DNA of 64,000 bases from an uncultured delta proteobacterium. GTDB taxonomy: Bacteria > Desulfobacterota > Binatia > UBA9968. A program made the position numbers and the translations under genes. The notes under the pieces were generated by a model, which worked only from the letters and a program-made list of their open reading frames with translations, made no database searches and was not told the origin of the DNA. Of the stretch, positions 3,973-22,800 are shown piece by piece. The stretch lies in assembly GCA_963760795.1 (NCBI GenBank), contig CAVXEP010000001.1:96001-160000 (forward strand), read 5' to 3'. How positions within the stretch are numbered: position 1 is the first letter of the stretch; every line of letters begins with the position of its first letter.

Positions 3973-4827
3973 ATGACTATTCGCTCGTTCGATTTACTCC
4001 AACCGCGATCCTTGGCCGAAGCCGTGGAGCTTTTGCATAAGCATGGCGACGACGCCCGCGCCATTGGCGGCGGCACGACCCTGGTTATTCTGATGAAGCA
4101 GCGCGCGCTGCACTATCCCTACTTGGTCGATTTGCAGACGATTCCGGGGCTGAATCACATCACCAAAGAGAATGACGGCATACGCATCGGCGCTCTGGCG
4201 ACCCATCGCATGGTCGAGCTGTCGCCGGTCATTCGGCAAGCTGTCCCCGTGGTCGCCGAGGCGTTCAGCCATATCGGCAACGTGCGCGTGCGTCAGACGG
4301 CGTCGGTTGGCGGCAATCTCGCCCATGCCGATTATCGTTTGGACCCGCCGCCGCCCTTGTTGGTTCTTGACGCCCAAGTCTCGGTCTTCGGCGCCAACGG
4401 CGCGCGCACGATTCCGCTCAAGAGATTTTTCCGCGGCATGTATGAAACCGCGCTGGAGCCAGGCGAGATTCTCTCCGAGGTATTCATTCCGCAGCTGCCG
4501 GTAAACGGCAAAGCGGTCTACCTGCGTTACAACGCATTGTCGGCCAATGATTGGCCTTGTTTGGGCGTGGCGGCGTTCATGCGGAAGGACAGTGGCCGGT
4601 GTCAGGAACTCCGTCTCGCGCTCGGCGGCGTGGCGGCTACGCCGCTGCTGATCTCCGGATTGGAATTCGCCAACGACCAGCTGGTCGACACCGGCTTGGT
4701 TGATCGGATTCTCGCTGCGGTGGACGAGCAGATCTCGCCTTCTGCAGATTTGCGCGGCTCGGAGTGGTACAAGCGCCGCATGGCTCGGCTGTTTACTCAA
4801 AAGGCGATTGCGCAGTTGAACGGATAA
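3973..4827 (+). CDS. xanthine dehydrogenase family FAD-binding (medium) subunit
   Basis: IGGGTTL, VRQTASVGGNLAHAD and DLRGSEWYKR motifs of the CoxM/XdhB type. Confidence 0.9.
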   Translation: MTIRSFDLLQPRSLAEAVELLHKHGDDARAIGGGTTLVILMKQRALHYPYLVDLQTIPGLNHITKENDGIRIGALATHRMVELSPVIRQAVPVVAEAFSHIGNVRVRQTASVGGNLAHADYRLDPPPPLLVLDAQVSVFGANGARTIPLKRFFRGMYETALEPGEILSEVFIPQLPVNGKAVYLRYNALSANDWPCLGVAAFMRKDSGRCQELRLALGGVAATPLLISGLEFANDQLVDTGLVDRILAAVDEQISPSADLRGSEWYKRRMARLFTQKAIAQLNG

Positions 4828-4831
4828 ACCC

Positions 4832-7162
4832 ATGGCAAATTTCGCAGTGGTCGGACAATCGGTTTATCGCAAGGACGCCAACCCGAAGGTTACGGGACGG
4901 GCTTTGTACGTCGGCAATATCGATATGCCGGGTATGCTTCATGTCGCGGTATTGCGCAGTCCGTATCCTCACGCGCGCATCGCGCGCATCGACAAATCCA
5001 AGGCCGAGGCGCTGAGCGGCGTGGCGGTGGTAGTCACGGGCGCCGAGATCGCCAAGATGCCGGGAATCGATCCCCACTTCGGGCCGGCGTTTCGCGACCA
5101 GCCGATTCTCGCCGTGGAAAAAGTCTGTCATGTCGGCGATCCGGTGGTCGCGGTGGCGGCGGTCGATAAGCGCACGGCCGAGGACGCCTTGCAGTTGATT
5201 GAAATTGACTACGATCCGTTGCCGGCGGTTTTCAATGTGCTCGATGCCGTCACGGAACAGTCGGCGCTGGTCCATGAAGTACACCGGCCGGCCAAAGCGT
5301 TCGCTGATCTGGCTCATGTCCAGGCCGGCCAAAAGTCCAATATCTGCTATCAGTTTAAACTTCGCTTGGGCGACGTCGATAAGGCCTTCGCTGAAGCCGA
5401 CCGGGTGTTCGAAGATCAGTTCACTTCGCCGCCGGCGCAGCATGTGCCGATGGAGCCCCATGTCACGCTGGTCTATCTCGACGAGCATGAACGGGTAAAC
5501 ATCTGGACCGCCAGCCAGTCGCCATCGTATGTGCGCACGGAGGTGTCGGCGACCTTTGGCATCCCGATGCACCGGATTCGCGTGCGTGTGCCTTATCTCG
5601 GCGGCGGTTACGGCGCAAAACTTTACGCTAAGCTGGAACCGCTGGTGACGCTTCTAGCGCTGATCACAAGGAAACCGGTGCGTTACACGTTGACGCGAGA
5701 AGAGGAGTTCCTGACCGTCACCAAGCATGGGGTGGTGACCAAGATCAAGACGGCGCTCAAGAACGGCGCGATCACGGCGCGCAAGTGCGAGGTCTATTGG
5801 GACACCGGCGCCTATGCCGAGATCGGCCCGCGCATCGGTCACAAATCGGGTTACACTTCCGCCGGGCCCTACAAGATCCCAAACGTTTGGATCGACTCTT
5901 ATTGTGTGTACACGAACAAGGTTCCCGCCGGCGCCTTTCGCGGTTTCGGTGTGCCGCAGGTTATATGGGCGTACGATTCGCAGACTGACATGATCGCGCG
6001 CGCCCTCGGTGTCGACCCCGTCGAATTTCGTCTCCGGCCGATGCTTGACGAAGGCGAGGCGTTCGCCACCGGCACGTTGGTGAAGTCCTTCGGTATTAGA
6101 CAGGCGACCCTTCAAGCCGCCCAATCCATCGACTGGTCGAAACCGCGCACGGCCCAATCCGGCACCAAGTTTCGCGGCAAAGGCATCGCCGCCGGCGTCA
6201 AAGCGGTGCTCACGCCGTCGATTTCGGGCGCGATCGTGATTCTCAATGCCGACGGCACGGCCAATGTCTTGAGCAGTACGGTGGAAATGGGCCAAGGGTC
6301 GGAGACGACCATGAGTCAGATCGTCGCCGAGGAGTTGGGCATCGCCGCCGACGAAGTCCATATCGTCCAGCCCGACACCGATGTCACGCCTTACGATACC
6401 ATTACCGCCGGCAGCCGCTCGACTTACCATATGGGCAATGCAGTGCGCATGGCTGCCGCCAAGGTCAAGGCAGCACTGTGCGATGTGGTGGCGTCAAAGC
6501 TCGAGGTCGATCCCGACGATCTGGCTGCGGGCAAGGGGCGCATTTACGTCCGCGGCCTGGAAGAACGCGGCATGACCATCGGGCAAATTTTTTTGGCCAA
6601 GTTTGGCAGCCTCGGCACCACTCTGGCGGCCGAAGCGGTTTGCCAGCCGAGCGCGGCCCATATGGATCCCGAAACCGGCCAGTCTGAGAAGTGCACGGAG
6701 TACTGGTTCCCGTCGGCGACCGCCGCCGAGGTCGAGGTTGACACCGAGACCGGGCAGGTCAAAGTGCTTCAACTGGTGAGCGTCGGCGATACTGGGACTT
6801 CGATCAACCCGCGCCATTGCGAGCAGCAACTGCAAGGAGCTGCGCTCATGCACCTGGGACTCACTATGTTCGAGGAGATGATTTTCGAGGACGGACAGCT
6901 GGTCAATGGCTCACTGCTCGATTACCAAATCGCTTCGATCAAAGATATGCCGGAAGCGGTCCGTCCGGTGGTAATTCAGGTGCCTCATGAGGACGGGCCG
7001 TTCGGCGCCAAAGGGGCCGGTGAGACCGGTGCCCTAACAGTGGCGCCGGCGATTGCCAACGCGATCCACGACGCCGTCGGTGTGCGCATTCGCGACTTGC
7101 CGATCACGGCGGAACGGGTGTTAAGAGCGTTGGCAGAAAAAGACCAGATGGCGCGGGGTTAG
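4832..7162 (+). CDS. xanthine dehydrogenase family molybdopterin-binding (large) subunit
   Basis: GGGYGAK, AFRGFG, EMGQG and PFGAKGAGE motifs; lacks the CODH AYRCSFR signature. Confidence 0.92.
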   Translation: MANFAVVGQSVYRKDANPKVTGRALYVGNIDMPGMLHVAVLRSPYPHARIARIDKSKAEALSGVAVVVTGAEIAKMPGIDPHFGPAFRDQPILAVEKVCHVGDPVVAVAAVDKRTAEDALQLIEIDYDPLPAVFNVLDAVTEQSALVHEVHRPAKAFADLAHVQAGQKSNICYQFKLRLGDVDKAFAEADRVFEDQFTSPPAQHVPMEPHVTLVYLDEHERVNIWTASQSPSYVRTEVSATFGIPMHRIRVRVPYLGGGYGAKLYAKLEPLVTLLALITRKPVRYTLTREEEFLTVTKHGVVTKIKTALKNGAITARKCEVYWDTGAYAEIGPRIGHKSGYTSAGPYKIPNVWIDSYCVYTNKVPAGAFRGFGVPQVIWAYDSQTDMIARALGVDPVEFRLRPMLDEGEAFATGTLVKSFGIRQATLQAAQSIDWSKPRTAQSGTKFRGKGIAAGVKAVLTPSISGAIVILNADGTANVLSSTVEMGQGSETTMSQIVAEELGIAADEVHIVQPDTDVTPYDTITAGSRSTYHMGNAVRMAAAKVKAALCDVVASKLEVDPDDLAAGKGRIYVRGLEERGMTIGQIFLAKFGSLGTTLAAEAVCQPSAAHMDPETGQSEKCTEYWFPSATAAEVEVDTETGQVKVLQLVSVGDTGTSINPRHCEQQLQGAALMHLGLTMFEEMIFEDGQLVNGSLLDYQIASIKDMPEAVRPVVIQVPHEDGPFGAKGAGETGALTVAPAIANAIHDAVGVRIRDLPITAERVLRALAEKDQMARG

Positions 7163-7166
7163 ATTC

Positions 7167-7649
7167 ATGAAGCGCGAGATTGCACTGAGAATCAATGAGC
7201 AGGAGGAGCGCATTACCATCGACGACGCCGACACGCTGCTCGAAGTCTTGCGCGAGCGCTGCAAGTTGTGGAGCGTGCGCGAAGGTTGCGGTGTCGGCGC
7301 CTGTGGCACTTGCACGGTGTTGCTTGACGGCAAGCCGGTGAGCTCGTGCCTGCTGCTTGCTGCGCGTGCCGCCGGCTGTGACATTCTCACAGTCGAAGGC
7401 TTAAGCGAAGGTGAGTCACTGCATCCGATTCAGCAGGCTTGGGTCGAAGAGCGCGCGTTGCAATGCGCCTACTGCACGCCTGGCTTCGTGCTCTCGGTCA
7501 AAGCCCTGCTCGAAGAGAACACCGATCCAAGCGATGACGAGATCCGCGAATATCTTGCCGGCAATCTCTGCCGCTGTGCCGGCTATGCCGATATCCTGCG
7601 CGCGGTCCATGCGGCGCGTGTGAAGCTTAAAGCTACAGTCAATTGCTGA
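7167..7649 (+). CDS. xanthine dehydrogenase family 2x[2Fe-2S] (small) subunit
   Basis: GCGVGACGTC...C, QCAYCTPG and NLCRC motifs. Confidence 0.92.
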   Translation: MKREIALRINEQEERITIDDADTLLEVLRERCKLWSVREGCGVGACGTCTVLLDGKPVSSCLLLAARAAGCDILTVEGLSEGESLHPIQQAWVEERALQCAYCTPGFVLSVKALLEENTDPSDDEIREYLAGNLCRCAGYADILRAVHAARVKLKATVNC

Positions 7650-7935: not shown

Positions 7936-9834
7936 ATGGATATCCAGCAAAACCATCAATTCGCTAGTAAGAAGCGGTCATGGAATGTCGATTGGATCTT
8001 CGGTGTGGCCAAGAAGGAAACGGTTATTCGTTTGCGCTGGCCGCTGGTCATACTTTCCTCCTATCTGCTTTACTACGCGCCGGTTGCATGGCTCTCCGCG
8101 ACGCAAGTCCAGGCGCTTCTGAGTCTCTATCTCTTGAGCCACGCCACGCTGTATTTTTTGGCGGATGATTTTTTCGATTCGCCCTATTTCTACGGTCCTT
8201 TGCTGGTATTCGATACCCTGGTGCTGATCGTCGTCTTGAGCGCCAGCGGTGCGGCGAGTCCCGACTTTTATATCGCCTGTGTCGTGACCGTCGTCTTGAG
8301 TCTGATCTGCAACGACTCTCGCGGTCTCCTGGTAGTAACGATCCTGGCGCCGCTCCTCTACGGCTACGCATTGTTTAGCTCGTCCACCGTGCTCGAGCCG
8401 GAGCTTTTTGTTCAGCTGCCGTTTCCCTTCGTGATATCGCTGTTTTACGGTTATTTCGCTCAGGTCGGCAGGATGCGCCGGCTGGCCCGGGAAAAAGAGC
8501 AAGAGGTGCGGCGCGAGCAGCGTGCGGCGGAAGAACTGCGCCGCCAGCGCGAGCGCTTGGAGGCGATGCATGAAGTCAACGTCGCCGTGACCTCGACCAA
8601 CGAAACCAAGAGCATTCTGAATGGTCTGTTGGAGAAAACCTTAAGCCACTTGCCCTATGCCGCGGCGCTGGTTAGGTTGCGCGACCCGCAGTCGCAGCTG
8701 GTCGAGACGGTTGCGGCCAAGGGCTTCGATACTAAAGAGCGGTTGGACGCGGATACGCTCAGCTTTGTCGATGGGATCATGAAAGCCACCGAGCCCTTGA
8801 TGGTGTGCAACGTCTTTGCTGATACGCGGTTCGAGAATTTGGCGTTTTTCAAAAAAGAAGGCTTAGTGTCGATCATCGGTCTGCCGCTGGTGGCCAACCA
8901 CGAAAGCCTCGGCTGTCTTGTCTATGCGACCCGTGAAGAGCATGGCTTTGGTGCTGAAGAAGTCGAGTTTTTAGACACGCTGGCCGGCCAAGCCGCCATG
9001 GCGATCCACCACTCGCAGTTGTACCGCCAAAGCCAGCAGCAGACCGAAGAGCTGCGTCATGCGCACAAGATCAAAGATGAGTTTCTCAAGGTGGTTTCCA
9101 ACGAATTAAAAACGCCGCTCAGCGTGATCGTCGGTTACACCGACATGTTCAACCAAGGATTGTTGGGCCAACTGACGCCGATTCAAGAGAAGGCGATCGC
9201 AACCATCGAGCGGCAATCGAAAGAGCTTGGCGGTCTAATCAACACGGTTCTGCGGGTGAGCGATATCGAGTCGGAGACTCTGCGCGCCGGCGAAAATGAA
9301 ATCAGTCTGTGGGAATTTCTGTCCGAGCTGCGCTCGGAGTACGACACCCCTCTGGAGAAAAACGTCAAACTCGTCTGGGATTATCCGGCGGATTTGCCGA
9401 CCATCCAAAGTGACCGGCCCAAGCTCAAACGCATTGCTGAGAATCTGATCAACAATGCCGTCAAGTTCACCGAACATGGCACGGTGACGATTTCGCTCTA
9501 CTATTTGGCAGCGGCTAAAATTCTTGAGCTCACGGTGGCCGATACCGGAATCGGTATGGCGAGCGAAAGGCGCGGTGTGATATTCGAGAAGTTCCGCCAA
9601 CTACATGATTCCCATCTGGTACCACAGCATGGCGGCGTCGGATTGGGACTCTACATTGTCAGGAAGTACATGGACATTCTCGGCGGTGAGATTCGCGTCG
9701 ACAGCGAGCCGGGGAAGGGATCGACATTTACCATGCGCATCCCGATAGCGCTCTACAAACAAGCGACGCTGCATGAACAGCTTTTACTGCCTACCGGAAT
9801 CGAAACACCGAGGGTTGGTTTAGAGTCAAGATAG
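7936..9834 (+). CDS. membrane GAF-domain histidine-kinase-like protein, H-box His replaced by Asn
   Basis: N-terminal TM helices, GAF, HisKA (FLKVVSNELKTPL), HATPase boxes NLINNAVKF, DTGIG, GVGLGL and GKGSTF. Confidence 0.88.
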   Translation: MDIQQNHQFASKKRSWNVDWIFGVAKKETVIRLRWPLVILSSYLLYYAPVAWLSATQVQALLSLYLLSHATLYFLADDFFDSPYFYGPLLVFDTLVLIVVLSASGAASPDFYIACVVTVVLSLICNDSRGLLVVTILAPLLYGYALFSSSTVLEPELFVQLPFPFVISLFYGYFAQVGRMRRLAREKEQEVRREQRAAEELRRQRERLEAMHEVNVAVTSTNETKSILNGLLEKTLSHLPYAAALVRLRDPQSQLVETVAAKGFDTKERLDADTLSFVDGIMKATEPLMVCNVFADTRFENLAFFKKEGLVSIIGLPLVANHESLGCLVYATREEHGFGAEEVEFLDTLAGQAAMAIHHSQLYRQSQQQTEELRHAHKIKDEFLKVVSNELKTPLSVIVGYTDMFNQGLLGQLTPIQEKAIATIERQSKELGGLINTVLRVSDIESETLRAGENEISLWEFLSELRSEYDTPLEKNVKLVWDYPADLPTIQSDRPKLKRIAENLINNAVKFTEHGTVTISLYYLAAAKILELTVADTGIGMASERRGVIFEKFRQLHDSHLVPQHGGVGLGLYIVRKYMDILGGEIRVDSEPGKGSTFTMRIPIALYKQATLHEQLLLPTGIETPRVGLESR

Positions 9835-10689: not shown

Positions 10690-10966
10690 GACGATATTGC
10701 TTCTGGTGATGGTACTTATTCATATCATCGGCGAATGTCAAGAAAGGGGGCTCTTCCGCTGATCGCAGTGATATTCAGTTCACCGCGCCTTGGATAGTCC
10801 GCTTTCCCACGTTGTCATCTTTTAGCTAAGGATTGCAACGAATCTTCCCAGCATTTTTATTACGTCTTTTGTTTCGCCGCTTGGCGGAGCGCCAGCAGTG
10901 TCCAGGCTGATGGCCATCGACTTTAATACCGATTGATCTTTGTATAAACAAAATCGTTAGCCACGC

Positions 10967-10993
10967 AAAAAAAGCCGGGAGACTGCTCCGGCC
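10967..10993 (-). terminator. rho-independent terminator after the grdB-like gene
   Basis: GGCCGGAG-CAGT-CTCCCGGC hairpin followed by T7 on the - strand, just after the stop at 11007. Confidence 0.8.
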
Positions 10994-11006
10994 ATGCTCG
11001 TCGTAG

Positions 11007-12311
11007 TCAAACTTCGGTCGGTTTGTCAGCTTTGCTCTCCAACGACGCCAGCGCTTTTTCCATCAATGCGATGCGCCAGCGCCGTTCTTCCTCGGCGGGC
11101 AGCTCCGGCTGGCCGACCGGATAATGAAACTTATTGCCGCCGACGATTCTGCCGACGCCAACTTGCGCGGCGACGTTGGCCAGGCAGGTGATGAGCACCA
11201 CCGGGATTCCTTGTTTCTCAATTTCTTTTGCGATCGTAGCGCCGCTACGCGTGCCGGTGCCTCAGGTCGCGGTCAAGATGACGGCGTTCACACCGGAGTT
11301 CGCCAGTTCCCCGGCGATGCCGGCGCCGAGCTCAGCCATCTTGCTCGGCATCGCGCCGGTGCCGGTGGTGACGAAATAGCGCTCGTGAAGTTTTTTGAAG
11401 CGTTGGTTCTTCTCCAGCTGGCGCATCGCATCCAGCGGCACAATGCGGTCGGGATCTTCATCCACCATCGAGGTGTCGTAGCCAGTATGCATCGCTGCGA
11501 ATTCGCCGCACTTCAAATCGTCCAGCCCGGCCAGCGAATATTTGAAATAACGTGAGCCGCGCGAGCTTTCGAGCCGATCCGGATTACCCTTGGGCACGAG
11601 ACCGCCTTCGGTGACGAGAGCCACCGTGGCGTCTTTCAAGCTGCCGGTTAGATTGGGAATCATGTGCCGCGCGGTTGTGATGAGCGGGATCTCGCTTTCG
11701 TAGGTTTCGCCGTTAAGCTTGGCGAGCATGAGATCGACGGCGCGGACATAATCCGGCTTGGCGGTTCTGACGGTGAAGCGGCGTGGAATCGGCAAGCAAT
11801 GCTCGGCGCGGAAGGCTTCCGCGCCGGCTGGGTCTTGCGCTATTAACAGTTCGACCAGCGCTGAAAAGCGTTTTGCCGCCTCCGCCATGGACGCCGTGGA
11901 GGCGCCGGTTTGCACGACGAATACTTGGCGGCCGATCTCCTGTGTGCCCGGATTGTTTTCATGCATGCCGGTGATTGCCGGAATACGCCAGTTGTCGCGC
12001 ACCCAGCTGCACGCCTTGGCGCAGGCGATACCGTAGCGGCCGGCGTTGAAGGCTGGGCCGGCCAGGAAGAAATCGGGCTGAAACCGGTCGATGGCGGCGC
12101 GCATCGATTGCAGTGCTTGCTCTTCTTGTTCATGAAAGTAGTTGTCGCCGCAGGCCAGCGTTGCATACTCGACGCCGCGCTGCTGGAAACTCCTTTCGAT
12201 TTCAACTCCGATACCGACCGCCTGCGGCAAAAATATAACTTCCTGCCCGGCCTTCTCTTCGCCGCCGATGCCGGCGAAGAACTGATTCAAATAATGGAGC
12301 ACTTTGATCAT
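11007..12311 (-). CDS. grdB: glycine/sarcosine/betaine reductase selenoprotein B family (Sec at TGA 11262-11264), 434 aa
   Basis: HYLNQFFAGIGGEEKA, CGDNYF, GPAFNAGRYG and VPKGNPD motifs. After ILTAT-TGA the same frame continues GTGTRSGATIAKEIEKQGIPVV... to the stop at 11007. Confidence 0.9.
11235..11264 (-). promoter_or_regulatory. in-frame UGA plus bacterial SECIS-like hairpin
   Basis: TGA, 12 nt, then CGTAGC-GGC-GCTACG perfect stem with a G-first loop 18 nt after the UGA. Confidence 0.7.
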
Positions 12312-12322
12312 GTCGTTCCTCT

Positions 12323-13612
12323 CTAGTTTTCATAGACCGCGCGAAAGCCGCTCATGCCCATTTTGCTGTAGGAACCGAAGAAAATCGTCGGGTCGAAGAG
12401 AAAAGGTTCACGCGCGTCATGGCGCGCTTTCAAGTGGAGGTCGATCTCAGGCCCGCCGATGACACTTTCCAGTGGTGGAATATAAATCTTCTCCGAAACA
12501 TTACCGCGGCTGATCATGCCATCGGCCTCTGCCGGATGATCGACCAGCGGCCGCTCGTAGCCCTTGGGTCCGTTGGATTCATGCAACACCGCGGCGGTCT
12601 TGATGCCTTCATCTTCGCATGCTTTCACGGTTTGCATGAAATCGACGGTGCCGTTGCCGGTGCCTTCCATGAAAGCCAGCGCGCCGTCGGCGCCCAAATT
12701 TTTTGCCAGCCGCGCCACCCACAGGCCCATTTTCTTTTTCTGCTCGAAGCTGTCGTTATAACCGCGCGAAAGAATCACACCGCGAAAGTTTATGCCCCTG
12801 CCGTGGCGGTTGAGCAATTCCCATATAAACGGATTGTCGCAATGCAGCGACGTCGGCACCTTGCGTTCGCTCTTAAAGTTGCCGCTGACCAGCGCGCCGT
12901 CGAAAAATTCCGCCGGATGGACGAATGTCGGCAGCGTCCGTGAGATTTCTTCGCCATAGTAAAATGTCCGGGCGCAGCGCACTTGGCTTTGTACTTGGTA
13001 GATCAAGACGACTTTGGGCAGACTCGCGTCTGACCGCAGTGAGCGCAATCCTGTGGCGCTGCGGGCGCGGCGTGGTGCTTTTCCGCTTGCGGCAATAAAG
13101 CGCGCGCAGCGCAGCGCCATGAGCCGGAGCGCTTGATCGAAGCCGGCATTGGAGACCGACGCATCGGCAGTTAGCGATAGCACCAGATGAAAACAATCCG
13201 AGCCGTAGGAGTATGGGGCGCCGACGCCGGTCATGTCGAGAATCCCCTCGCGCTGTTTCTCGATGGGAGTCAATTCGTCGAAATGAGGGAAGCGGCCGGC
13301 GACGGTGATGAGCAGGTTGCGAATTCGCACTGTCTGTCCCGTTCCCACGAGAGCTGCGGGACCGTCGAATCCCGGAAAAGTCGAGCCGCCACCGGAGAGT
13401 TTGGCGATCGGCAGGACCGTGTCGAGCACATGGACGATGCGCTTGGCTTCGCCGGGACGAGCGAGTTCGAAATCAACCCCGATGCCGTGACTAAGGTCGT
13501 CGATTTGCTTTTCAAGCTCGGCCCGGCAGAGCGAGAGGGCGGCGCCGTCAAGCCGCGTGCGCTCGCCCCATCCGAGATCTCCGATTGAATAATCGAGCAG
13601 TTCCAGTTCCAT
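12323..13612 (-). CDS. glycine/sarcosine/betaine reductase component B proprotein (GrdE/GrdI-like), 429 aa
   Basis: MELEL start, LARPGE..RI, FPGF, REGILDMTG.GA.YS, TFYYG, HPAEFFDGALVSGN, HG..INF.GVI, EG.GN..VD and GNVSE motifs; directly upstream of grdB. Confidence 0.85.
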   Translation of the reverse strand: MELELLDYSIGDLGWGERTRLDGAALSLCRAELEKQIDDLSHGIGVDFELARPGEAKRIVHVLDTVLPIAKLSGGGSTFPGFDGPAALVGTGQTVRIRNLLITVAGRFPHFDELTPIEKQREGILDMTGVGAPYSYGSDCFHLVLSLTADASVSNAGFDQALRLMALRCARFIAASGKAPRRARSATGLRSLRSDASLPKVVLIYQVQSQVRCARTFYYGEEISRTLPTFVHPAEFFDGALVSGNFKSERKVPTSLHCDNPFIWELLNRHGRGINFRGVILSRGYNDSFEQKKKMGLWVARLAKNLGADGALAFMEGTGNGTVDFMQTVKACEDEGIKTAAVLHESNGPKGYERPLVDHPAEADGMISRGNVSEKIYIPPLESVIGGPEIDLHLKARHDAREPFLFDPTIFFGSYSKMGMSGFRAVYEN

Positions 13613-13725
13613 CGCGCGATCCTTTCGACAAACGGAACGCTCGATGTTTATCGCGGCAGCAAGCTTGGTGTCAATGCAGTTCGAATCACTCCGATGCGGG
13701 TGCCGCAATGCCAGCAGGGTATTTC

Positions 13726-15048
13726 TTAAAATCGCGCGTCGACCCATTTCGCCACGTAGTCGAAAAAGTTTTTCACCGAATTGGAATATTGCCCCTTGGT
13801 TTTCTCGCACTCCGTGCATGGCGTGATGCCGTGGGTGGCGCCTTCGATGGTGATGAAGTCCTTATCCTTGCTCCTGGCGACCTCGTAGTGGATCTCATTG
13901 TCGCGGATAAAGTAATGGCCGCCCATGGCGCCGAAGAGGACCGGCACGGAAATCTGTTGCAGGGCGCAGACGGTGGAGTTGTTGCTCGAGCAATGGTCGA
14001 TGCCGTCGAGCGAATTGGTCGCGCGCACGGCATTGGCGCTCAAGAACGAGCGCACGGTGAGAAACAGCGTGCCGCCGTCGAAGGTAGAGTTCTGCTTGGC
14101 AATATCGGGCACGGCTACGCGCACACTGTCGAGCATGCAGCAATCGTCGATACTGCCGTCGTTTTTGAGCAGCCGGCGCGGCGCGCTGGTGCTGCGCAGA
14201 ATGCTCAGGTCGAGCTGAAAGAGTTTGGCGGCGTCACCGCGGGGCACGATGAACGGCGCGTCGTCTTTCGGGTTTGCACTCGCTTCGATGCGGCGGAGTT
14301 TTTCCACTGCCAAGTCGATCAGCCGGTTCATGCGCTTGGCCTGTCCCTCGAAGTAGGTTTTTTTGAACGCCTCAGAATAGTGCGATGGACCGTTGGGGTT
14401 GTAGCCGTTCTTGGCATCGAAGGGGTCCAACTTCGGGTCGATCTTGGGCGCTTTGTTTTCGTTGATCATCGCGGCGTCGTTGATGACCGCGGGATTTAGA
14501 TTTCTCACCCCGGCGATGACCGGATTGCCTGGGTGGGCATCGCGAAAAATAATCCCGTCCGCCGGCGGCAATCCGGCGAGCTCGTTGCCGCACTTCAAAA
14601 TTCGCTGCGGCGCCTGGCAGTAGGCGACGCCGTTTTCGGCGACGGCTTGATAAAAACTCATGGTCGGCCCGCCGCCGCTGCCGCCGAGCAGCAAGACTTT
14701 GGCGATGCCGGCTTGCTTGCGCAGGAAGTTGACGCCGGATTTCACATCGAGAGCGATCTGGTCCCACTTCACCATGGCTTCGTTGTTGTCCGAGCGCGGA
14801 TTTAAGCACAGCACCATGTAGCCGCGCTTGGCGAGTTCAGTGCATGCAAGACTGCCCATAACGTTGCCAGTGCGATGCACGACCAAGATGCCCACCCGGG
14901 CGGCCGGCAATGGCGGATCGGGTTTGTACAGCGCGCCTTTTACCGCGGGTGGCGCGAACTGGATGTAGGTCGGATTACTTTGCGCGTGGGCGCGCTGAAC
15001 GGCGACAGACGCGATGAGTGTGAAAAAAATCATTTGAAACCGGCGCAT
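13726..15048 (-). CDS. secreted alpha/beta-hydrolase-fold protein
   Basis: Signal peptide ending AHA; LLGGSGGG nucleophile elbow; C-terminal EGATHG; several Cys pairs. Confidence 0.7.
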   Translation of the reverse strand: MRRFQMIFFTLIASVAVQRAHAQSNPTYIQFAPPAVKGALYKPDPPLPAARVGILVVHRTGNVMGSLACTELAKRGYMVLCLNPRSDNNEAMVKWDQIALDVKSGVNFLRKQAGIAKVLLLGGSGGGPTMSFYQAVAENGVAYCQAPQRILKCGNELAGLPPADGIIFRDAHPGNPVIAGVRNLNPAVINDAAMINENKAPKIDPKLDPFDAKNGYNPNGPSHYSEAFKKTYFEGQAKRMNRLIDLAVEKLRRIEASANPKDDAPFIVPRGDAAKLFQLDLSILRSTSAPRRLLKNDGSIDDCCMLDSVRVAVPDIAKQNSTFDGGTLFLTVRSFLSANAVRATNSLDGIDHCSSNNSTVCALQQISVPVLFGAMGGHYFIRDNEIHYEVARSKDKDFITIEGATHGITPCTECEKTKGQYSNSVKNFFDYVAKWVDARF

Positions 15049-15210
15049 GTTCACTTCCTTCCTGTGGTTGGTGCGGTCAACTTAGATGGAAACAGGAATC
15101 GGAACAAGAAAAATTTTGCGTATGCGCACAGCGAGGCAACGGCTGCTTGCTCAGTAATCTTGCTGCAGCCGGAGTATGAGTACCCTCTTAGCAAAATTCA
15201 GGGGAAAAAT

Positions 15211-15336: not shown

Positions 15337-16821
15337 TTACTGCTCCGGCGATGCCGGGAAAATCAAAGACTTGATGACCACCGGCACGGCGCCGGAGGAT
15401 TGAATGAGCGCGCCGACATCGATGAAGTCGAAGTCGCTAAGCGCAATGCCGTCGATGGAGATGATCGCGCTGTCCAACTTCAGCTCTTCCTGGCAGTGCA
15501 GGCCGATGATGCCGCCGATGTCGCCGTCGTTGACCAAAACCAGCGGATGGCCTTTGGCGAGAATGTCTTTGAGACCTTCGGCCACGCCGCTGCAAAACGC
15601 TTGCAGCCGCGCGAAGGTCGCTGAGCCTTCCCAATGAAATGCTACGGCGACCGGCTGGCGGCCGTGCAGCATATCGAGGCGCCGCAGCGCGCTGAGCAAT
15701 CCGTCGCGCACGGCATCCTTGGTGAATTCTTCCTGACCCAGCGGGAACTCGGGCGCAACCACGGCGATGTTGCGCACCGGCACGGCGTCGTCAGGCATGA
15801 TGAAGATGGTGTTGCCGCTCACTTGCACGGTGTATTGAGACGCGCCGATGACGGTGGCGCGGATGCGCGCGTTGGGTTCCATCATCAGCAGGCCCAAGTT
15901 GCCGGCGCGTTTGTGCACTTCCTCGGCGATCAGCGGCCCCAGGTCGCCAAAGCTGGTCTTGGCGCGACTGTAAATAAATTCCGAGACGCCGCCGGAAAAC
16001 ATCACGCAATCGATCTCGCCGGTGTAGCTTAGCGGCGGCATGCGCAACAAGCTCTTGAAACCGTCGTCGATGGCCGATGGTTTCAACATGGCGAACAGCT
16101 TGTCGACCATGCCGGAGACCATTTTGCGTAAATTCTCTTCGGGAATTTTCTCGCCCATGGCCACCGAGAAGCCGGCCCAGCCAGCATGCTTGCGGGCGGC
16201 TTCTTCGATGCGCACGATGACACCGTCTTTGTCGAAGGCGAGCAGGCGGGCGCCGATGTCGATGGCCGATACTTCCTGGACTTTACCGTTGTTGCAGATC
16301 GCGAACTTGCTGGTGCCGCCGCCGATGTCGATGTTCAAAACTACGCCACCCATTTTCGCCGAGTGGGCTACCGCGCCCGAACCATGGGCAGCCATGGTCG
16401 CCTCAAGGCCGTCGCCGGCGCTGACCGCGACGAACTTACCGGCTTCCTGGGCGAACAGCTCGCCGATGGCGCGGGCATTGCGCCGACGCACGGCAACGCC
16501 GGTGAGGATCAATGCGCCGGTGTCGACCTGTTCGCGGCTAATTTTCGCGATCTTATATTGGTCGTTGATGAACTTGCCCAATGCTTCGACATCGATTCTC
16601 GTGTCATCGACGTAGGGCGTCAGGAGGATTTGCGATTCATTTATAACCTCGCGCTTGGTCACCCGGTAGCGCGACCCTTCGAGGGTCAGTTCGAGGCGAG
16701 AGAAAACCAGATGGGAGGTCGACGATCCAATGTCGACGCCGACGCTGGTGAGCCGTAGGTTTTCTTCATCCTGCATGTGGCGGTTGGCATTGGAAAACGA
16801 ACCTCTAGGTGCGGTGGCCAT
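15337..16821 (-). CDS. EutA-like (reactivating factor family) ASKHA ATPase
   Basis: SVGVDIGSSTSHLVFSRL, ILLTPY, DTGALILTG, NIDIGGGT, FSGGV and IRATVIGASQYT..VSG.TI motifs. Confidence 0.85.
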   Translation of the reverse strand: MATAPRGSFSNANRHMQDEENLRLTSVGVDIGSSTSHLVFSRLELTLEGSRYRVTKREVINESQILLTPYVDDTRIDVEALGKFINDQYKIAKISREQVDTGALILTGVAVRRRNARAIGELFAQEAGKFVAVSAGDGLEATMAAHGSGAVAHSAKMGGVVLNIDIGGGTSKFAICNNGKVQEVSAIDIGARLLAFDKDGVIVRIEEAARKHAGWAGFSVAMGEKIPEENLRKMVSGMVDKLFAMLKPSAIDDGFKSLLRMPPLSYTGEIDCVMFSGGVSEFIYSRAKTSFGDLGPLIAEEVHKRAGNLGLLMMEPNARIRATVIGASQYTVQVSGNTIFIMPDDAVPVRNIAVVAPEFPLGQEEFTKDAVRDGLLSALRRLDMLHGRQPVAVAFHWEGSATFARLQAFCSGVAEGLKDILAKGHPLVLVNDGDIGGIIGLHCQEELKLDSAIISIDGIALSDFDFIDVGALIQSSGAVPVVIKSLIFPASPEQ

Positions 16822-16917
16822 GGAAATCCTTACGGGTTTAAATTGGTTCGGCGTCGAGAGTCTAGAGTCTGGCGTCAAGCCAAACCCTAGACCCCAGGCG
16901 CTGGATGCGAGACGAAT

Positions 16918-18114
16918 TTAGTAAGAGTTCTTGTAAAGATCGGGTTCCATGCGCGATTTGGCGCCGACCTTTTCGAGGGTTTCCTCGAATTCTTTACGCA
17001 GGTACGGATCTTCTTCGTTGTACGGGATCGCGGTGCCGCCGTCTTTCAAGTCGATGGCGCCGTAGTCGATGCCCTTTTCGCCGGGCTTGCCGCGATCGCG
17101 CCCAGGCGCGTTGGGACCGAACCAGGCCGTGAGACGCAGCGGCTCTTTGCTGGCGCCAAAGTGAGCGTGGAACCAATTGCCGCTCATCGGCGCGGCGCTG
17201 ACCATGCCCACCGGTTCATAGTCCTGTCGTCTAATTTTTTCCGTCGTGCCTTTTTCCCAGGGGTGCATGCCTAATTCTGACGGCCAGGTGTAGGTATATC
17301 CTTTGCCGCTGAGGCAAATTAGCACGGCGGCGGAGCCATGCGCATGCGCCTTCGAGTAACGGCCGGTTTCATGCTGGCCGATCCACATGTAGAATTGCTG
17401 GCCAGCCATGTGCGGCTCGATACGCCGGTAACCCGGCGAGCGCCGGTTATCCATCGGCAATTCGCAGGACATCACGTCGGGAATGATGTTGGTCTGGCGC
17501 ATGGCGAGACCGCGCAGCGGATCGGGTGTCACTTCTTCTTTGTACTTGTAATAATCGTCGCTCGGATCGAAACGATCTTTGAAGTGATAGGGGCAATTGA
17601 AAATAAAATCGTCGTTGCCGAAATTATTCATAACGTTCGGCGCCGTGGTGCCGCCCAATAAGAGCGCCGGGCTGGAAGTCGCGTTAACAATTCGGTGGGT
17701 CGCGTTCATTGGAATGGCAAACATCGAACCTTTTTGCCACTCGAAGGTGATCTTCTTCGGATTGCCGTCGATCCACACTTCCGTGGTGCCGCGGCCGTCG
17801 ACGACGAGGTATTGTTCTTCGTACAAATGCTTTTCGGGATTCAACGCGCCGGCGCCGGGAACCTCAACAACGTAGCAGCCCCACAAACCTTCGGTGCCCA
17901 GTAGCTGAATAAAGGTGCCGTTGCCGCCCATGCGTTTCCACGGCTTGCGCGGCAAATCCTGTACGCGGCGCACGCCGATGTCACGATAGATCGGAATACC
18001 CTGCGACTCCATGTAGTTGTCGTAAGGCGTGTTTGGCCGGAGAAATTTTCCATAGCCTGCCCGGGTCTTATTATCCGTCGGTTCCTGAAATGCTTGCTCA
18101 GCGGGATGATCCAT
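16918..18114 (-). CDS. bicupin protein
   Basis: Two cupin motifs (PEKHLYEE...GRG / PMNATH and YSKAHAH...GKGY / WFHAHF); AAGGAGG RBS. Confidence 0.8.
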   Translation of the reverse strand: MDHPAEQAFQEPTDNKTRAGYGKFLRPNTPYDNYMESQGIPIYRDIGVRRVQDLPRKPWKRMGGNGTFIQLLGTEGLWGCYVVEVPGAGALNPEKHLYEEQYLVVDGRGTTEVWIDGNPKKITFEWQKGSMFAIPMNATHRIVNATSSPALLLGGTTAPNVMNNFGNDDFIFNCPYHFKDRFDPSDDYYKYKEEVTPDPLRGLAMRQTNIIPDVMSCELPMDNRRSPGYRRIEPHMAGQQFYMWIGQHETGRYSKAHAHGSAAVLICLSGKGYTYTWPSELGMHPWEKGTTEKIRRQDYEPVGMVSAAPMSGNWFHAHFGASKEPLRLTAWFGPNAPGRDRGKPGEKGIDYGAIDLKDGGTAIPYNEEDPYLRKEFEETLEKVGAKSRMEPDLYKNSY

Positions 18115-19817: not shown

Positions 19818-22800
19818 TTAGAACAGCGTCAATTCTTCATTGGCTTGCGTGCCGACATCAATCGATTCGCCCAGGCGCAGAAAGATTAATTTAAACGCCG
19901 CCACTTGGCGCCCGAGGCCTTTTCGTGCCGCCTCGATATAAATCTCCGCCTGCTGGCGATAGCGCTCGGCGCCGATGCGTAATTCATTTCGTTTAATTCT
20001 ATCTGTCTTATAGTCGGCCAGGTAAAGCAAGCCGTTTTTCTCGTAGATGAGATCGATGACACCTTCCATGATCTGATCCGTTCCATGGCATGAGTGAGCG
20101 GCACTTCGCGGCCGAGGATCTTGGCGCCGGCGAGTTCGCCGTAGACTTTTGAGCGGAAATAATTATCCAAAATTTCGTGCAGCTCGGTTTCGATCTCAGC
20201 GCGGTGTGAAACGAATTCCGCCGGCAGAGCGCCGTCGATGAAAGCTGCGCAATTGCTCATCGAGATTCGCTGTCTCACCGCCGAACTGCCAGGTCTGCAA
20301 AAATCGGTGCGTCAGATCGCCGACCACCAGCGCCGGGGTCTTTCGCGGTGGTTGGATGGTCAGTCTATCGCCGGCTTCGGTGCTCGCTTCTTCCTGGCGC
20401 TTGAGCAGGGTCGGCGTGAGAAATGGCGTGGTCTGTTGCGCCTTTTCATAGATCGCCGTCCGGCGCGCCCAATCGTCGACATAGGGTTTCCAGTTGGGCT
20501 TTTTTTTGGAGCGTTTGGCTTTGGCCGGCGCGTGGCTGGGGGCGCTGAGACTCTGATTGACGACTTCGATCTCGACCATACCTTTGCCGAGGGCGACCCG
20601 GGTTGAGGATTCGGCGCCGGCGATGCTGTCGCCCAGCGTTGTGTCGAGCATGGCCTGAAAGCTGCCGCTGGAACGCCGGCCGCTCGGTGCGCAGGAGATG
20701 ACTAGATGTTCTCGCGCTCTCGTCATGGCGACGTAGAGCAGCCGTTTTTGTTCTTCGGCATTTCTCAAGCGGTTTTTCTCGGCGATGTAGAGGCCGGCGA
20801 GATCGGCGATCTGGCCGATGCGCGTGCCGGTGAGTCCGGTGGACCAATCGAAGGTCGACTCGGCTTCGGCGCTATGGCGTCCTTCGGTGCCGGTCTGGCA
20901 GCCGGCCAGGATGACGATGGGGAACTCCAAGCCTTTGGCCTTATGGATGCTCATGATGCGCACGGCGTCGAGGTTTTCTTCGGCGAGCACGCTTTCGCCT
21001 TCGTCCTTGACGTCGAGGACGCGCTGTTCGAGCTGGCGGATCGCTTGTTTGAGCGTGGTCAATCCCTCGCGGCCGAGCTGTTCGGCTTGCTGGCGCAGCT
21101 TGGCTAAGTTGGCCACCGCCTGCTCGCCGTGGAAATGGCAGGCGGCGAGCAGCTCCACCGGCAGAGTGGAAAATACCCGATCGACGGCGGCGCCGATGGG
21201 CAGGGTTCTGGTTTCCTCGTTGAGCCTGGCCAGCGCCTGATAGAGTTGAGCGAGCGTTGCTGGAAACTCTTCGACGTCGAGTTTGGCGGCGTCGCGATAG
21301 TCGAGCCGGTTTTGCCGGTGCAGCTGGTAAATCTGCAAGTCGGTGAGCCCGCCCAAGGGCGAACGCAGCACGCCGACTAGGGCCAAGCGGTCGTAGGGGT
21401 TCTCCACCGCGCGCAGCAGATTGACCGCGTCGATGATTTCTTTGGCGGCGTAGAAATGGCGCTCGCCTTCGACCACGTAGCGAATGCCCTGGCGGCGTAA
21501 CGGTTCCAAATAGTCGTGGATGTCGGTCAGCTTGCGCATCAGAGATGGCGACGTCTTTCGGCTGGGCGTAGACGGTCTCGCCGCGCGGGTTGAGAATCTG
21601 CGCTTTACCCAACACAGACTCTTTCAACCAGCGCGCCAAGCTCTCGCCTTCGATGCGCCGGGCGGTTTCGGCATCGGTCTGATCGTCAGGCGGCGATGAT
21701 TTTTCTGACCGAGAGTTTCGCCAGCGGGCCTGAGAGGCTCGCGCGGCCGGGCGCGGGCTGGATAGCGATATAGGGCGGCTGTAACGCCTCTCGGGTTTGG
21801 ATCAATTGTTCAAAGGCGCCGTTGACGACGTCGAGGATGGCGCCGTCGCTGCGGAAGTTAGTCGTTAGCCGGCACTCGATGCCGTCTTGTGCCAAGATGA
21901 TTTTTTCTACCACTTCCAAATAGGCCTCGATGTCGGCGCGGCGGAAAGCATAGATCGATTGTTTCGGGTCGCCGACCACGAATAGTTTGCCGGGTTCCAA
22001 TCTAACTTTGCGCCACTCCGACACGCTCTGATTGGCCTGTTCGGCCAAATAGAGAAGAATCTCGTACTGGATCGGGTCGGTGTCCTGAAACTCGTCGATC
22101 AAGATCGTCCGGTAGCGGCGTTTGAGTTCGGCGCGCACCCGCTTGTGGTCGCGCATCAGGTTGCGGGCGCGAACTAACAAGCCGTCGAATGAGATATGGC
22201 CGTCGCGCAGGAAGCGCTCGCGAAAGGCGCTGGCGTAGGGAACGAGCAATCGCCAGAGCAATGCGGTGAACTCGCCGTCGACGCCGGCCAGGCCTTTGGC
22301 GGCGCGGACTAGCTTTTGCGCCGCAGCGATATCTTCCGCAGACCAGCCATTGAGGTCGCGGCTGACCGATTTTTCCGCCAGGAGCGCGTAGCACTCGGCC
22401 AAGTCCGCCGAGCGCCGGCCGGATTTTTCAAACTCGTAGATCACCGCGTGGGCGGCGCGCACGAGTTTTTCATTCATCCGGTCTTCCCGATAGCGCGCGT
22501 CCAAGGCCGCGGCTTGCGCGGCTAATTTGCCGAGCCAAGCGCGCAGCGGCGCGGCGATTTCGTTGGTATTCGTTGGATCTTGGTCGAGGTTCACGGTTTC
22601 CGCTGCCAGCGATATAGCGAGAGCTTTGATTTGATCGAGCTGGCAGCGCGCGAGCACTTTGCGCCATTCGTCGGCGTGGGGGCTGCCTAAGGCCAGTTCT
22701 TGATCGAGCCAGGCGTCCCATTGCTCGTCGAATAGCCGATCGAATTGCGTGCCGTCGTCTTCGCGAAATTGCGGATCAACACCGGCTTCGATGGGATAGA

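What the first reader, a model, noticed from the sequence alone, without database searches (positions are those of the whole stretch)
11007..12311. Hidden GrdB-family selenoprotein with non-canonical UxxGxxS active site
Seen: the ORF track splits one gene at TGA 11262-11264. Read-through gives a 434-aa protein with ILTAT-U-GTGTRSGATIAKE, and a perfect CGTAGC-GGC-GCTACG hairpin starts 12 nt after the UGA. Established: clostridial GrdB has T-U-G-T-C-T-R-C (UxxCxxC). Here both cysteines are replaced (GGC, AGC), and the AGC sits inside the hairpin stem. Inference: Sec is kept as the sole chalcogen nucleophile, implying a different catalytic or resolving cycle and probably a different substrate. 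The errors visible in this contig are indels, so two substitutions at exactly these codons are unlikely to be noise.
Basis: partly seen in the sequence, partly recalled or inferred. Interest (0 to 1): 0.85.

Follow-up and report, generated by a model that had tools for sequence, protein, structure and literature searches.

The report
Cysteine-less GrdB-family selenoprotein subfamily
This is a real selenocysteine-containing enzyme subunit of the glycine-reductase family, from a soil bacterium, whose active-site motif and partner subunit both lack the usual cysteines, so it probably reduces a substrate that is not yet known.

Summary
On the minus strand, 12311..11007 is one 434-codon gene with an in-frame TGA at 11264..11262. 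It reads ILTAT-U-GTGTRSGAT, and a perfect hairpin (11249..11235) starts 12 nt after the UGA.

The protein belongs to the GrdB family (Pfam GRDB, NCBIfam TIGR01918). It scores below every named equivalog: GrdB, GrdF, GrdH and PrdB.

The variant is not noise.
- All 28 orthologous loci carry the same U-GTG-TRS motif.
- Contigs from independent sequencing runs agree at these codons.
- dN/dS downstream of the UGA is 0.11, against 0.09 upstream.
- selA, selB, selD and tRNA-Sec are all present in the genome.

The hairpin is the stem of Rfam SECIS_4. Two of its six pairs covary across the family.

On a tree, UxxGxxS marks one deep, well-supported clade. Other clades carry CC, GC, SC, SS, CS or DS at the same two positions.

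The most telling finding is in the adjacent GrdE-like partner. It lacks both cysteines of the canonical pyruvoyl-processing site, as published for GrdI and FarE.

Most likely this is a pyruvoyl-independent "protein B" with an unknown substrate. I rate it a new variant of a known kind, of moderate interest. A "different resolving cycle" is possible but not needed.

The parts
11007..12311 (-). GrdB-family selenoprotein B gene. It has 434 codons plus a TGA stop at 11009..11007, with Sec at codon 350.
   Evidence: One search gives the translation. Pfam GRDB matches at E 8e-108. NCBIfam TIGR01918 scores 371 bits against a cut-off of 65. An AlphaFold model has mean pLDDT 88.4.
11262..11264 (-). In-frame UGA read as selenocysteine.
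   Evidence: The TGA is kept in all 28 orthologous loci. Median dN/dS downstream is 0.114, against 0.094 upstream. Contigs of three runs bridge it unchanged.
11224..11261 (-). SECIS element, a variant of Rfam SECIS_4. Its 6-bp stem and GGC loop lie at 11235..11249.
   Evidence: 34 bits, full model 1-38. One search shows covariation in 2 of 6 pairs. One search lists the stem variants.
11244..11255 (-). Codons +3 to +6 after Sec: GGC ACG CGT AGC (Gly-Thr-Arg-Ser). The canonical family has Cys-Thr-Arg-Cys here.
12323..13615 (-). GrdE/GrdG/GrdI-family partner subunit (430 aa from MELELLDY). It lies 11 nt upstream of the selenoprotein gene and lacks both Cys of the canonical processing site.
   Evidence: Pfam Gly_reductase matches at E 5e-91. 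It is the only neighbour conserved across the whole clade. The longer ORF reaching 13819 overlaps a neighbouring ORF. Orthologues align from residue 1-2 of the shorter form.

Best explanation
The gene pair at 13615..12323 and 12311..11007 (minus strand) encodes the two subunits of a substrate-specific 'protein B' of a glycine-reductase-type system.

UGA-350 is decoded as selenocysteine. Decoding uses the SECIS_4-type hairpin 12 nt downstream and the genome's SelA, SelB, SelD and tRNA-Sec.

The enzyme belongs to a deep subfamily of its own. Its signature is T-U-G-T-G-T-R-S, and its partner subunit has Phe or Tyr where GrdE has the Cys that becomes the pyruvoyl group. It therefore most likely works like the pyruvoyl-independent members, betaine reductase GrdH/GrdI and fluoroacetate reductase FarB/FarE. 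In that mechanism the selenolate attacks the carbon next to a carboxylate directly and expels a leaving group that needs no Schiff base. The Se-bound fragment is then passed to the single GrdA (CxxU) of the genome and on to GrdC. The substrate is unknown.

Shown here: gene structure, Sec decoding signals, conservation, clade structure, and the missing cysteines in both subunits.
Inferred: the chemistry, hand-over to GrdA/GrdC, and absence of a pyruvoyl group.
For: 1. Family membership. Pfam GRDB and TIGR01918 are passed, while the GrdB, GrdF, GrdH and PrdB equivalog cut-offs are missed by a wide margin (331 vs 602; 378 vs 800; 360 vs 775; 88 vs 300).

2. Sec decoding.
- selA scores 612 bits, selB 410 bits and selD 379 bits (selD itself carries a TGA); tRNA-Sec scores 76.7 bits with anticodon tca.
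- SECIS_4 matches directly after the UGA.
- The hairpin pairs 24-34 (UA 43, CG 17, UG 2) and 25-33 (AU 37, UA 23, 2 unpaired) covary. In each pair a synonymous site tracks a non-synonymous one.
- Variable sites in the 79 codons downstream of the UGA, by codon position, are 38, 25 and 72. Median dN/dS is 0.114 there and 0.094 upstream.

3. Not noise.
- All 28 orthologous loci (62-94% identity; 23 distinct proteins) read T-U-GTGTRSGAT.
- Contigs from two DNA runs of different studies and one RNA-library run bridge the UGA with no difference at 11244-11264.

4. Own clade. The GS rows are one side of a branch with SH-aLRT 100 and a stem of 1.02 changes per site. Each motif class needs only 1-2 changes on the tree.

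5. Partner subunit.
- All 7 partners of CC-type genes whose site was covered read SGNCVSAC.
- All 7 GS partners read SGN[F/Y]KSERK.
- SS (5), SC (4), CS (2 partners at one locus) and DS (1) partners also lack the canonical site.
- Only CC genes reach the GrdB equivalog cut-off.

6. Precedent. FarB lacks the CxxC and FarE lacks the two processing cysteines 'similar to grdI', and grdA was reported as upregulated (passages of PMC10838667).

7. Downstream partners exist. GrdA is present with ECFVU. GrdC-beta scores 537 bits against a cut-off of 450, next to grdA. GrdA was found in 34 of 41 related genomes.
Against: - No grdA, grdC, grdD or thioredoxin gene lies near the pair. Neighbours differ between orthologous loci, so context gives no substrate.
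- GrdD (component C alpha) was not found in this genome (completeness 89%) nor in any of 41 relatives. A full canonical A/C pathway is therefore not demonstrated.
- All 7 GS partners have a clade-specific Cys 13 residues after the lost site (SLHC). A relocated pyruvoyl precursor cannot be excluded.
- The SECIS_4 score (34) is below Rfam's gathering score (38), and the 81-nt fold is not better than shuffles.
- Transcription is not shown. The RNA-library evidence is one contig, which may derive from DNA.
- No biochemical data exist for any member of this clade. Searches found none.
Confidence: 0.6

Rival explanations
1. Self-resolving cycle independent of protein A, as the first reader suggested and as in D-proline reductase. 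After Sec attacks the substrate, a cysteine elsewhere in the protein resolves the selenoether as a Se-S bond. An external reductant then reduces that bond, and no GrdA is needed.
For: Two Cys are invariant in the GS clade and absent or rare elsewhere: C172 (EHCLP) and C376 (LITCL). In the model, Sec350 follows strand 343-347 and C376 follows the next strand, 371-375, of the same beta-alpha-beta unit, so they could be close; that proximity is my inference. No grdA lies near the pair, and GrdD was not found.
Against: CC and GC clades have a Cys one residue earlier (position 375) in addition to their motif Cys, so a Cys there is not special to Cys-less motifs. GrdA and GrdC are kept in the genome and in 34 of 41 relatives, although no canonical CC-type GrdB turned up in this genome. 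Something must use them.
Confidence: 0.15
2. It is simply this lineage's glycine betaine reductase (GrdH/GrdI orthologue) with a drifted motif.
For: GrdH/GrdI is the known pyruvoyl-independent protein B (passage). JGI names several relatives 'betaine reductase'.
Against: The GrdH model scores 360 bits against a cut-off of 775, no better than the GrdF model at 378. GrdH is reported to carry UxxCxxC (passage). The genome has five such pairs, and nothing singles this one out for betaine. The JGI names are automatic and vary between glycine and betaine reductase for near-identical proteins.
Confidence: 0.12
3. It is a pyruvoyl enzyme after all. The precursor cysteine has moved to the conserved SLHC site of the partner, and the substrate is a primary or secondary amine.
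For: All 7 GS partners have a Cys at SLHC, aligned with Gln of the canonical HQNNP.
Against: Both canonical Cys are lost together, as reported for FarE and GrdI. The SGN motif before the old site is kept but is followed by Phe or Tyr. No known member cleaves at that position, as far as I recall.
Confidence: 0.1
4. It is a pseudogene or a 349-aa truncated protein, with the UGA acting as a stop.
For: 115 of the 120 best database homologues are 348-349 aa long. A search with residues 335-434 found only one full-length protein.
Against: Those lengths are gene-caller artefacts. In the DNA the frame continues for 79-98 codons in the 22 distinct sequences measured, with dN/dS 0.11. The SECIS is conserved with covariation, and the Sec machinery is complete.
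Confidence: 0.02

Closest known systems
Glycine reductase selenoprotein B (GrdB, TIGR01917) with proprotein GrdE
   Same: Same fold family (Pfam GRDB over residues 1-349). Sec is at the homologous site after a T-[ST/A]-T strand end. The same SECIS hairpin architecture is present, and there is an adjacent PF09338 partner gene.
   Different: It scores 331 bits against a cut-off of 602. The motif is UxxGxxS instead of UxxCxxC. The partner lacks the N-C cleavage site (SGNCVSAC becomes SGN[F/Y]KSERK). No grdA, grdC, grdD or trx gene lies in the locus.
Betaine reductase GrdH/GrdI
   Same: The partner subunit is not a proprotein and there is no pyruvoyl group (per the passage). This is the working model adopted here.
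   Different: The GrdH model scores 360 bits against a cut-off of 775. GrdH is reported with UxxCxxC. No betaine transporter lies nearby.
Fluoroacetate reductase FarB/FarE of Cloacibacillus porcorum (PMC10838667)
   Same: This is the only published case I found in which the selenoprotein lacks the CxxC and the partner lacks both processing cysteines. It is proposed to feed GrdA and GrdC.
   Different: The FarE model scores 100 bits against a cut-off of 675, so this is not an orthologue. There is no radical-SAM or antiporter gene here. The host is a different phylum and habitat. I could not see FarB's motif; the supplements were not consulted.
D-proline reductase PrdB
   Same: Homologous C-terminal half (TIGR04483 E 7e-25 over residues 204-402).
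   Different: It scores 88 bits against a cut-off of 300. PrdB is about 240 aa and works without protein A. The partner here is not PrdA-like.
Rfam RF01990 SECIS_4
   Same: Full-length match directly after the UGA, with the same 6-bp stem and 3-nt G-rich loop.
   Different: 34 bits against a gathering score of 38. The fourth stem pair is A-U instead of U-A because Ser AGC replaces Cys UGC, compensated by GCU for GCA in the Ala codon. One of the two outer pairs is lost.

Membership tests
GrdB family in the wide sense (Pfam PF07355; NCBIfam TIGR01918 'glycine/betaine/sarcosine/D-proline family reductase selenoprotein B') | Profile match above the curated cut-off | tested here: met
   PF07355 scores 361 bits (cut-off 22). 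TIGR01918 scores 371 bits (cut-off 65.45)..
GrdB family in the wide sense | In-frame UGA at the conserved site, followed by a SECIS, in a genome with Sec machinery | tested here: met
GrdB family in the wide sense | Adjacent PF09338 (GrdE/G/I) partner gene | tested here: met
   The pair is conserved in all 9 orthologous loci that had upstream flank.
Canonical GrdB/GrdF/GrdH (as in the literature) | UxxCxxC motif after Sec | tested here: not met
   U-GTG-TRS in all 28 orthologous loci.
Glycine reductase GrdB (TIGR01917), sarcosine GrdF (NF040794), betaine GrdH (NF040795), PrdB (TIGR04483) | Score above the equivalog cut-off | tested here: not met
   331 vs 602.2; 378 vs 800; 360 vs 775; 88 vs 300. 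Positive control: CC-type genes L081 (633) and L094 (617) pass TIGR01917.
Pyruvoyl-dependent protein B (glycine or sarcosine type) | Partner proprotein with the two conserved cysteines at the cleavage site | tested here: not met
   SGN[F/Y]KSERK in all 7 GS partners, against SGNCVSAC in all 7 CC partners. Actual cleavage was not testable here.
Fluoroacetate reductase FarB/FarE | FarE equivalog model NF053623 above its cut-off | tested here: not met
   100 bits against 675.
Complete glycine-reductase system | GrdA, GrdC (beta) and GrdD (alpha) in the genome | tested here: inconclusive
   GrdA is present (172 bits, CxxU). GrdC-beta is present (537 vs 450). GrdD was not found in G000 or in 41 relatives. 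The model does work, scoring 507 bits in G247.
Rfam SECIS_4 (RF01990) | Score at or above the gathering threshold | tested here: not met
   34 bits against 38. The structure is kept and covaries, so it works like SECIS_4 but falls just outside the curated threshold.
Selenoprotein (any) | Selenium actually incorporated | not testable with these tools
   Needs 75Se labelling or mass spectrometry.

The most novel reading that the evidence does not exclude
The Ser(+6) genes (GS, SS, CS and DS classes) are one radiation of selenium-dependent, pyruvoyl-independent C-X bond reductases, in which Sec is the only chalcogen of the active-site helix. Up to five paralogous pairs per genome in soil Desulfobacterota would each cleave a different, still unknown small molecule. 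The GS clade, the most divergent and widespread in soil metagenomes, would use its clade-specific Cys376 and/or Cys172 in place of the lost CxxC, which would be a mechanistic branch of the glycine-reductase family not yet described.
Probability: 0.25. Interest if true: 0.65.

Novelty: new variant of a known kind. Interest (0 to 1): 0.45.

Why it matters
The UxxCxxC motif is treated in the literature as required. One genome paper called a GrdB copy lacking it a likely pseudogene (passage). Here a Sec-obligate clade without either cysteine is under strong purifying selection and is common in soil metagenomes:
- At least 120 clusters at 74% identity or more were listed.
- Twenty listed runs from 15 studies hold part of the gene.

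Together with the partner subunit's lost processing site, this shows that most branches of the family sampled here are not glycine-type enzymes. It points to a set of selenium-dependent reductases with unknown substrates in soil Desulfobacterota.

In practice, every database protein of this clade but one is truncated at the UGA. The active-site motif and the last 84 residues are therefore invisible to protein-based surveys.

The SECIS data also give a clean example of an amino-acid change (Cys UGC to Ser AGC) matched by a compensating synonymous change in the opposite arm of the stem.

Tried and rejected
- **Second Sec at +6.** A pattern hit in G172 read T-U-GTGTR-TGA-GA. The fetched locus L089 is a chance match in a non-coding frame. 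L084 was likewise rejected.
- **Neighbouring genes as part of the system.** The cupin (16918-18114), the EutA-like ATPase (15337-16878) and the ORF at 13726-15054 are syntenic only in relatives above 90% identity. The last one is decayed or absent there.
- **Substrate from context.** Neighbours of distant orthologues differ: NMT1-type binding proteins, ABC parts, amidohydrolases, a creatinase/M24 peptidase, a CN-hydrolase and methyltransferases. No conclusion follows.
- **Solved structures.** There was no sequence hit in the PDB. Foldseek with the model gave only weak matches to two-lobed periplasmic-binding-protein-like folds (TM 0.16-0.28, rmsd 17-23 Å). I take these as generic alpha/beta likeness.
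- **Independent origins of Ser(+6).** The tree needs 2 changes, but the AU test does not reject a single clade (p 0.282). I therefore dropped the idea of lineage-driven convergence.
- **Terminator after the gene.** A T-run follows an imperfect GC-rich repeat near 10965-10995, but the scan did not flag it. I make no claim.
- **Cys-containing homologues.** None were seen. The search with residues 335-434 returned only P0031, whose W stands at the TGA position. That search needs shared 5-residue words, so it is not proof of absence.
- **RNA evidence.** Parts of the gene without cover in the RNA-library contigs say nothing either way.
- **Not available or not run.** No complex prediction was run. 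bSECISearch is not available here.
Full report
**1. What is in the sequence**

The feature lies on the minus strand. The plus strand reads 'tca' at 11262-11264. The ORF list has two same-frame pieces, 11262..12311 (349 aa) and 11007..11201. Translating 12311..11007 with TGA=U gives 434 residues with ...NAVILTAT-U-GTGTRSGATIAKEIEKQGIPVVLITC....

Twelve nucleotides after the UGA comes CGUAGC-GGC-GCUACG (11249..11235). The Ser codon AGC (11246..11244) is inside the 5' arm.

**2. Family**

The protein matches Pfam GRDB (E 8e-108, residues 1-349) and NCBIfam TIGR01918, the umbrella model for selenoprotein B of glycine, betaine, sarcosine and D-proline reductases (371 bits, cut-off 65). It falls far below the cut-offs of the specific models:

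| Model | Score | Cut-off |
|---|---|---|
| GrdB | 331 | 602 |
| GrdF | 378 | 800 |
| GrdH | 360 | 775 |
| PrdB | 88 | 300 |

The gene 11 nt upstream (12323..13615, minus strand) is a PF09338 GrdE/G/I-type subunit.

**3. Can the organism make selenoproteins?**

Yes. The window's genome (6.58 Mb, 35 contigs, completeness 89%) has the following:
- selA at 612 bits.
- selB at 410 bits.
- selD at 379 bits, itself with one TGA.
- tRNA-Sec at 76.7 bits, which ARAGORN calls tRNA-SeC with anticodon tca.
- One grdA with ECFV-U, next to a GrdC-beta gene (537 bits, cut-off 450).
- Four more GrdB-family genes, each with an in-frame TGA and its own PF09338 partner.

**4. Is UxxGxxS noise?**

No.

*Orthologues in relatives.* A search of 41 related genomes found orthologues (62-94% identity) in 17 of the 24 other genomes of the genus. 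None turned up in the 16 genomes of other genera of the order.

*Motif conservation.* With 11 loci from named MAGs (labelled delta proteobacterium, Thermodesulfobacteriota, Syntrophobacter sp., Candidatus Binatia), 28 loci show the region. All 28 read T-U-G-T-G-T-R-S-G-A-T, and the 15-nt hairpin is identical in all of them.

*Independent assemblies.* Contigs of independent public runs bridge the UGA, and no difference is listed at 11244-11264. The bridging contigs are:
- X1 record 2, a DNA run.
- X2 record 20, a DNA run from another study, with 0 differences.
- X16 record 12, from an RNA library, with 0 differences.

An RNA-library contig does not prove transcription.

*Selection downstream of the UGA.* Among 22 distinct orthologous sequences, the 79 codons downstream vary at 38, 25 and 72 sites by codon position. 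Median pairwise dN/dS is 0.114 (212 pairs), against 0.094 upstream (211 pairs). The frame past the UGA is therefore translated.

*Database state.*
- Of the 120 best database proteins, 115 are 348-349 aa long and stop at the UGA.
- Of the three others I read, P0031 is full length with W at the TGA position, and P0120 ends at the UGA.
- P0048 has R at that position and breaks off a few residues later.
- A search with residues 335-434 returned P0031 only. No Cys-containing homologue was seen, and the C-terminus of this clade is essentially absent from protein databases.

**5. The hairpin is the family's SECIS**

Rfam SECIS_4 (RF01990) matches 11261..11224, directly after the UGA, over its whole length (34 bits, E 1.5e-5, gathering score 38). 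Canonical genes score higher: L085 56.7 and L081 53.1. Others score about the same as the window: L094 37.9, L092 37.0 and L064 34.9. Eight of the 14 loci searched gave no hit at E 0.01 or better.

On 62 distinct 69-nt sequences from all motif classes, 98.4% of cells pair. Two of six pairs change on both sides:
- Columns 24-34: UA 43, CG 17, UG 2.
- Columns 25-33: AU 37, UA 23, 2 unpaired.

No shuffle out of 500 reaches the observed paired fraction or covariation score. Slid controls drop to 10-59% paired.

In both covarying pairs a synonymous site follows a non-synonymous one:
- Arg CGU/CGC tracks Thr ACG/Ala GCG.
- Ala GCU/GCA tracks Ser AGC/Cys UGC.

Ser at +6 is AGC in every sequence listed.

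As a caution, the hairpin alone is not rare. The window has 28 such hairpins, and 8 of 1774 TGA are followed by one. The 81-nt fold has z 0.11.

**6. How unusual is the motif?**

*Literature.* I read passages, not whole papers. UxxCxxC is described as conserved in GrdB, GrdF and GrdH, and as protecting Sec (PMC6778437; PMC13188914; PMC10838667).

*Scan of the window's phylum.* I scanned 401 genomes (G000 plus 400 others) with a degenerate pattern. The pattern found all five G000 genes, with 0 control hits in G000. I fetched the 24 hits that looked GrdB-like by eye. Twenty-two proved to be family genes: 12 CC, 7 GC and 3 SC, with none having Ser at +6. The remaining hits were judged random by eye and were not fetched.

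*Scan of the Bacillota-side phylum.* This scan covered 301 genomes centred on the genome of L067. It listed 150 matches, and the list may be capped. Reading them by eye, without protein verification, 132 look GrdB-like:

| Class | Count |
|---|---|
| CC | 114 |
| SC | 9 |
| DC | 6 |
| GC | 2 |
| DS | 1 (the centre genome itself) |

*Conclusion.* The +3 Cys is often replaced. The +6 Cys is nearly universal outside the window's order, where GS, SS and CS classes all carry Ser.

**7. Tree**

The tree used 64 distinct read-through proteins. Each was trimmed to 352 residues before Sec, with X at Sec. L084, L089 and L041 were left out, and duplicates were removed.

Results from the quick IQ-TREE run, SH-aLRT support only:
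- The 23 GS rows form one side of a branch with support 100 and a stem of 1.02 changes per site.
- SS (13 rows), CC (12 rows) and CS (2 rows) are each one group.
- GC and SC need two changes each.

The +6 state needs 2 changes on the tree. A single clade of all 39 Ser(+6) rows is not rejected (p-AU 0.282). Only CC genes pass the GrdB equivalog cut-off (L081 633, L094 617). GS genes score lowest (331-362). The motif is thus a subfamily signature, and GS is the most divergent subfamily sampled.

One SS row (L045) comes from G004, a genome flagged as unpublished. No statement depends on it alone.

**8. The partner subunit**

Only the PF09338 gene stays next to the selenoprotein gene across the GS clade (61-93% identity).

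At the site where CC-type partners read DGAIVSGN-C-VSA-C (7 of 7 covered), GS partners read DGA[LV]VSGN-[F/Y]-KSERK (7 of 7). Three GC partners read SGNYIIAC and one reads SGNCAAPC. SS (5), SC (4), CS (2 partners at one locus) and DS (1) partners have no canonical site.

That the N-C bond is the cleavage point is my recollection of Bednarski et al. 2001, which I did not read. [quoted passage not shown]

As a caveat, all 7 GS partners have a clade-specific Cys 13 residues further on (SLHC).

**9. Structure**

An AlphaFold model from a 21-sequence alignment has mean pLDDT 88.4 and pTM 0.56. It places Sec350 between strand 343-347 and helix 351-365. Residues +3 and +6 therefore sit on the first two turns of that helix. 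The GS-specific Cys376 directly follows the next strand, 371-375.

GS-specific invariant cysteines are C172 and C376. C54, C97 and C101 are family-wide. No solved relative exists by sequence, and fold matches are weak and generic.

**10. Reading**

The best-supported reading is a pyruvoyl-independent protein B that works like GrdH/GrdI or FarB/FarE. It would deliver its Se-bound product to the genome's single GrdA.

Points against or left open:
- No A, C or thioredoxin genes lie in the locus.
- GrdD was not found in G000 or in any of 41 relatives. It was found in only 1 of 5 genomes with a CC-type gene, where it scored 507 bits beside grdB.
- Neighbours vary between loci.
- The SLHC cysteine is unexplained.
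- There is no biochemistry for this clade.

**11. Novelty**

I found no paper on this clade or on a UxxGxxS motif. Only Creative-Commons PMC papers and bioRxiv are covered, and the supplements of PMC10838667 were not consulted.

The kind of enzyme is known, and one Cys-less, pyruvoyl-less member (FarB/FarE) is published. I therefore rate it a new variant of a known kind, with interest 0.45.

Noticed in passing
G000:C20:125302-126576, C13:9941-11212, C4:122429-123736, C4:155457-156750 (loci L002-L006, L070-L073): The genome has four more GrdB-family genes, each with an in-frame TGA and its own PF09338 partner. Their motifs are U-GTS-TRS (two genes), U-GTC-SRS and U-GTC-TRS. NMT1-type binding-protein genes lie beside most of them.
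   Followed up: partly
G000:C4:155457-155708 and 155686-156750 (L005, L006): The N-terminal 86 residues of this paralogue are in another frame and contain a TAG. A DDE transposase gene lies 0.6 kb upstream. This is either a frameshifted pseudogene or an assembly indel.
   Followed up: no
G000 and 41 related genomes; G247:C97:59325-60479: GrdD (component C alpha, NF040747) was not found in G000 or in any of 41 relatives, although GrdA (34 of 41) and, in G000, GrdC-beta are present. Among five genomes of the phylum with a CC-type GrdB, only one has GrdD. GrdD-less systems may be common in this phylum.
   Followed up: partly
G000:C11:1948-7514 (L007, L008, L015): selD, selB and selA lie together on one contig, and selD itself contains one in-frame TGA.
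   Followed up: no
protein P0048: One database relative (74% identical, 362 aa, source 'src') reads R at the Sec position (LTAT-R-GTGTRSGATIAKE) and breaks off there. It could be a CGA or AGA variant or an error. No DNA was available to check.
   Followed up: no
L066:5887-5955 and 9060-9128: Two tandem SC-class GrdB genes in a delta-proteobacterial MAG have Ser-Ala (UCC GCA) after Gly. The SECIS stem seems to be kept in a register shifted by one base (GUUGCG/CGCAAU), as read by eye.
   Followed up: no
window 13726-15054 (-): A 442-aa ORF has a weak alpha/beta-hydrolase hint and overlaps the long form of the partner ORF. It is fragmentary in two close relatives and absent in a third, so it is probably a decaying gene.
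   Followed up: partly
window 3973-7649 (+) and L070:11023-14883: Three-subunit molybdopterin hydroxylase clusters (FAD, Mo and 2Fe-2S subunits) lie near two of the GrdB/GrdE pairs. In L070 the Mo subunit is split into two overlapping ORFs, which suggests an indel.
   Followed up: no
window 15337-16878 (-): An EutA-like ATPase (PF06277, 384 bits; best EutA equivalog 327 vs cut-off 598) lies next to a two-cupin protein. No ethanolamine ammonia-lyase gene was seen in the stretch I annotated.
   Followed up: no
window 20196-24279 (-): Genes for a UvrD-type helicase and a PD-(D/E)XK nuclease (AddAB-like) overlap oddly in the ORF list. The helicase appears split into two ORFs (20196-21539 and 21686-23578).
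   Followed up: no
G692:C85:6780-6808 and G579:C75:25138-25166: Two pattern hits in the Bacillota-side scan read S-U-G-S-S-C-R-S and T-U-G-T-R-T-R-L. They may be further motif variants or chance matches.
   Followed up: no
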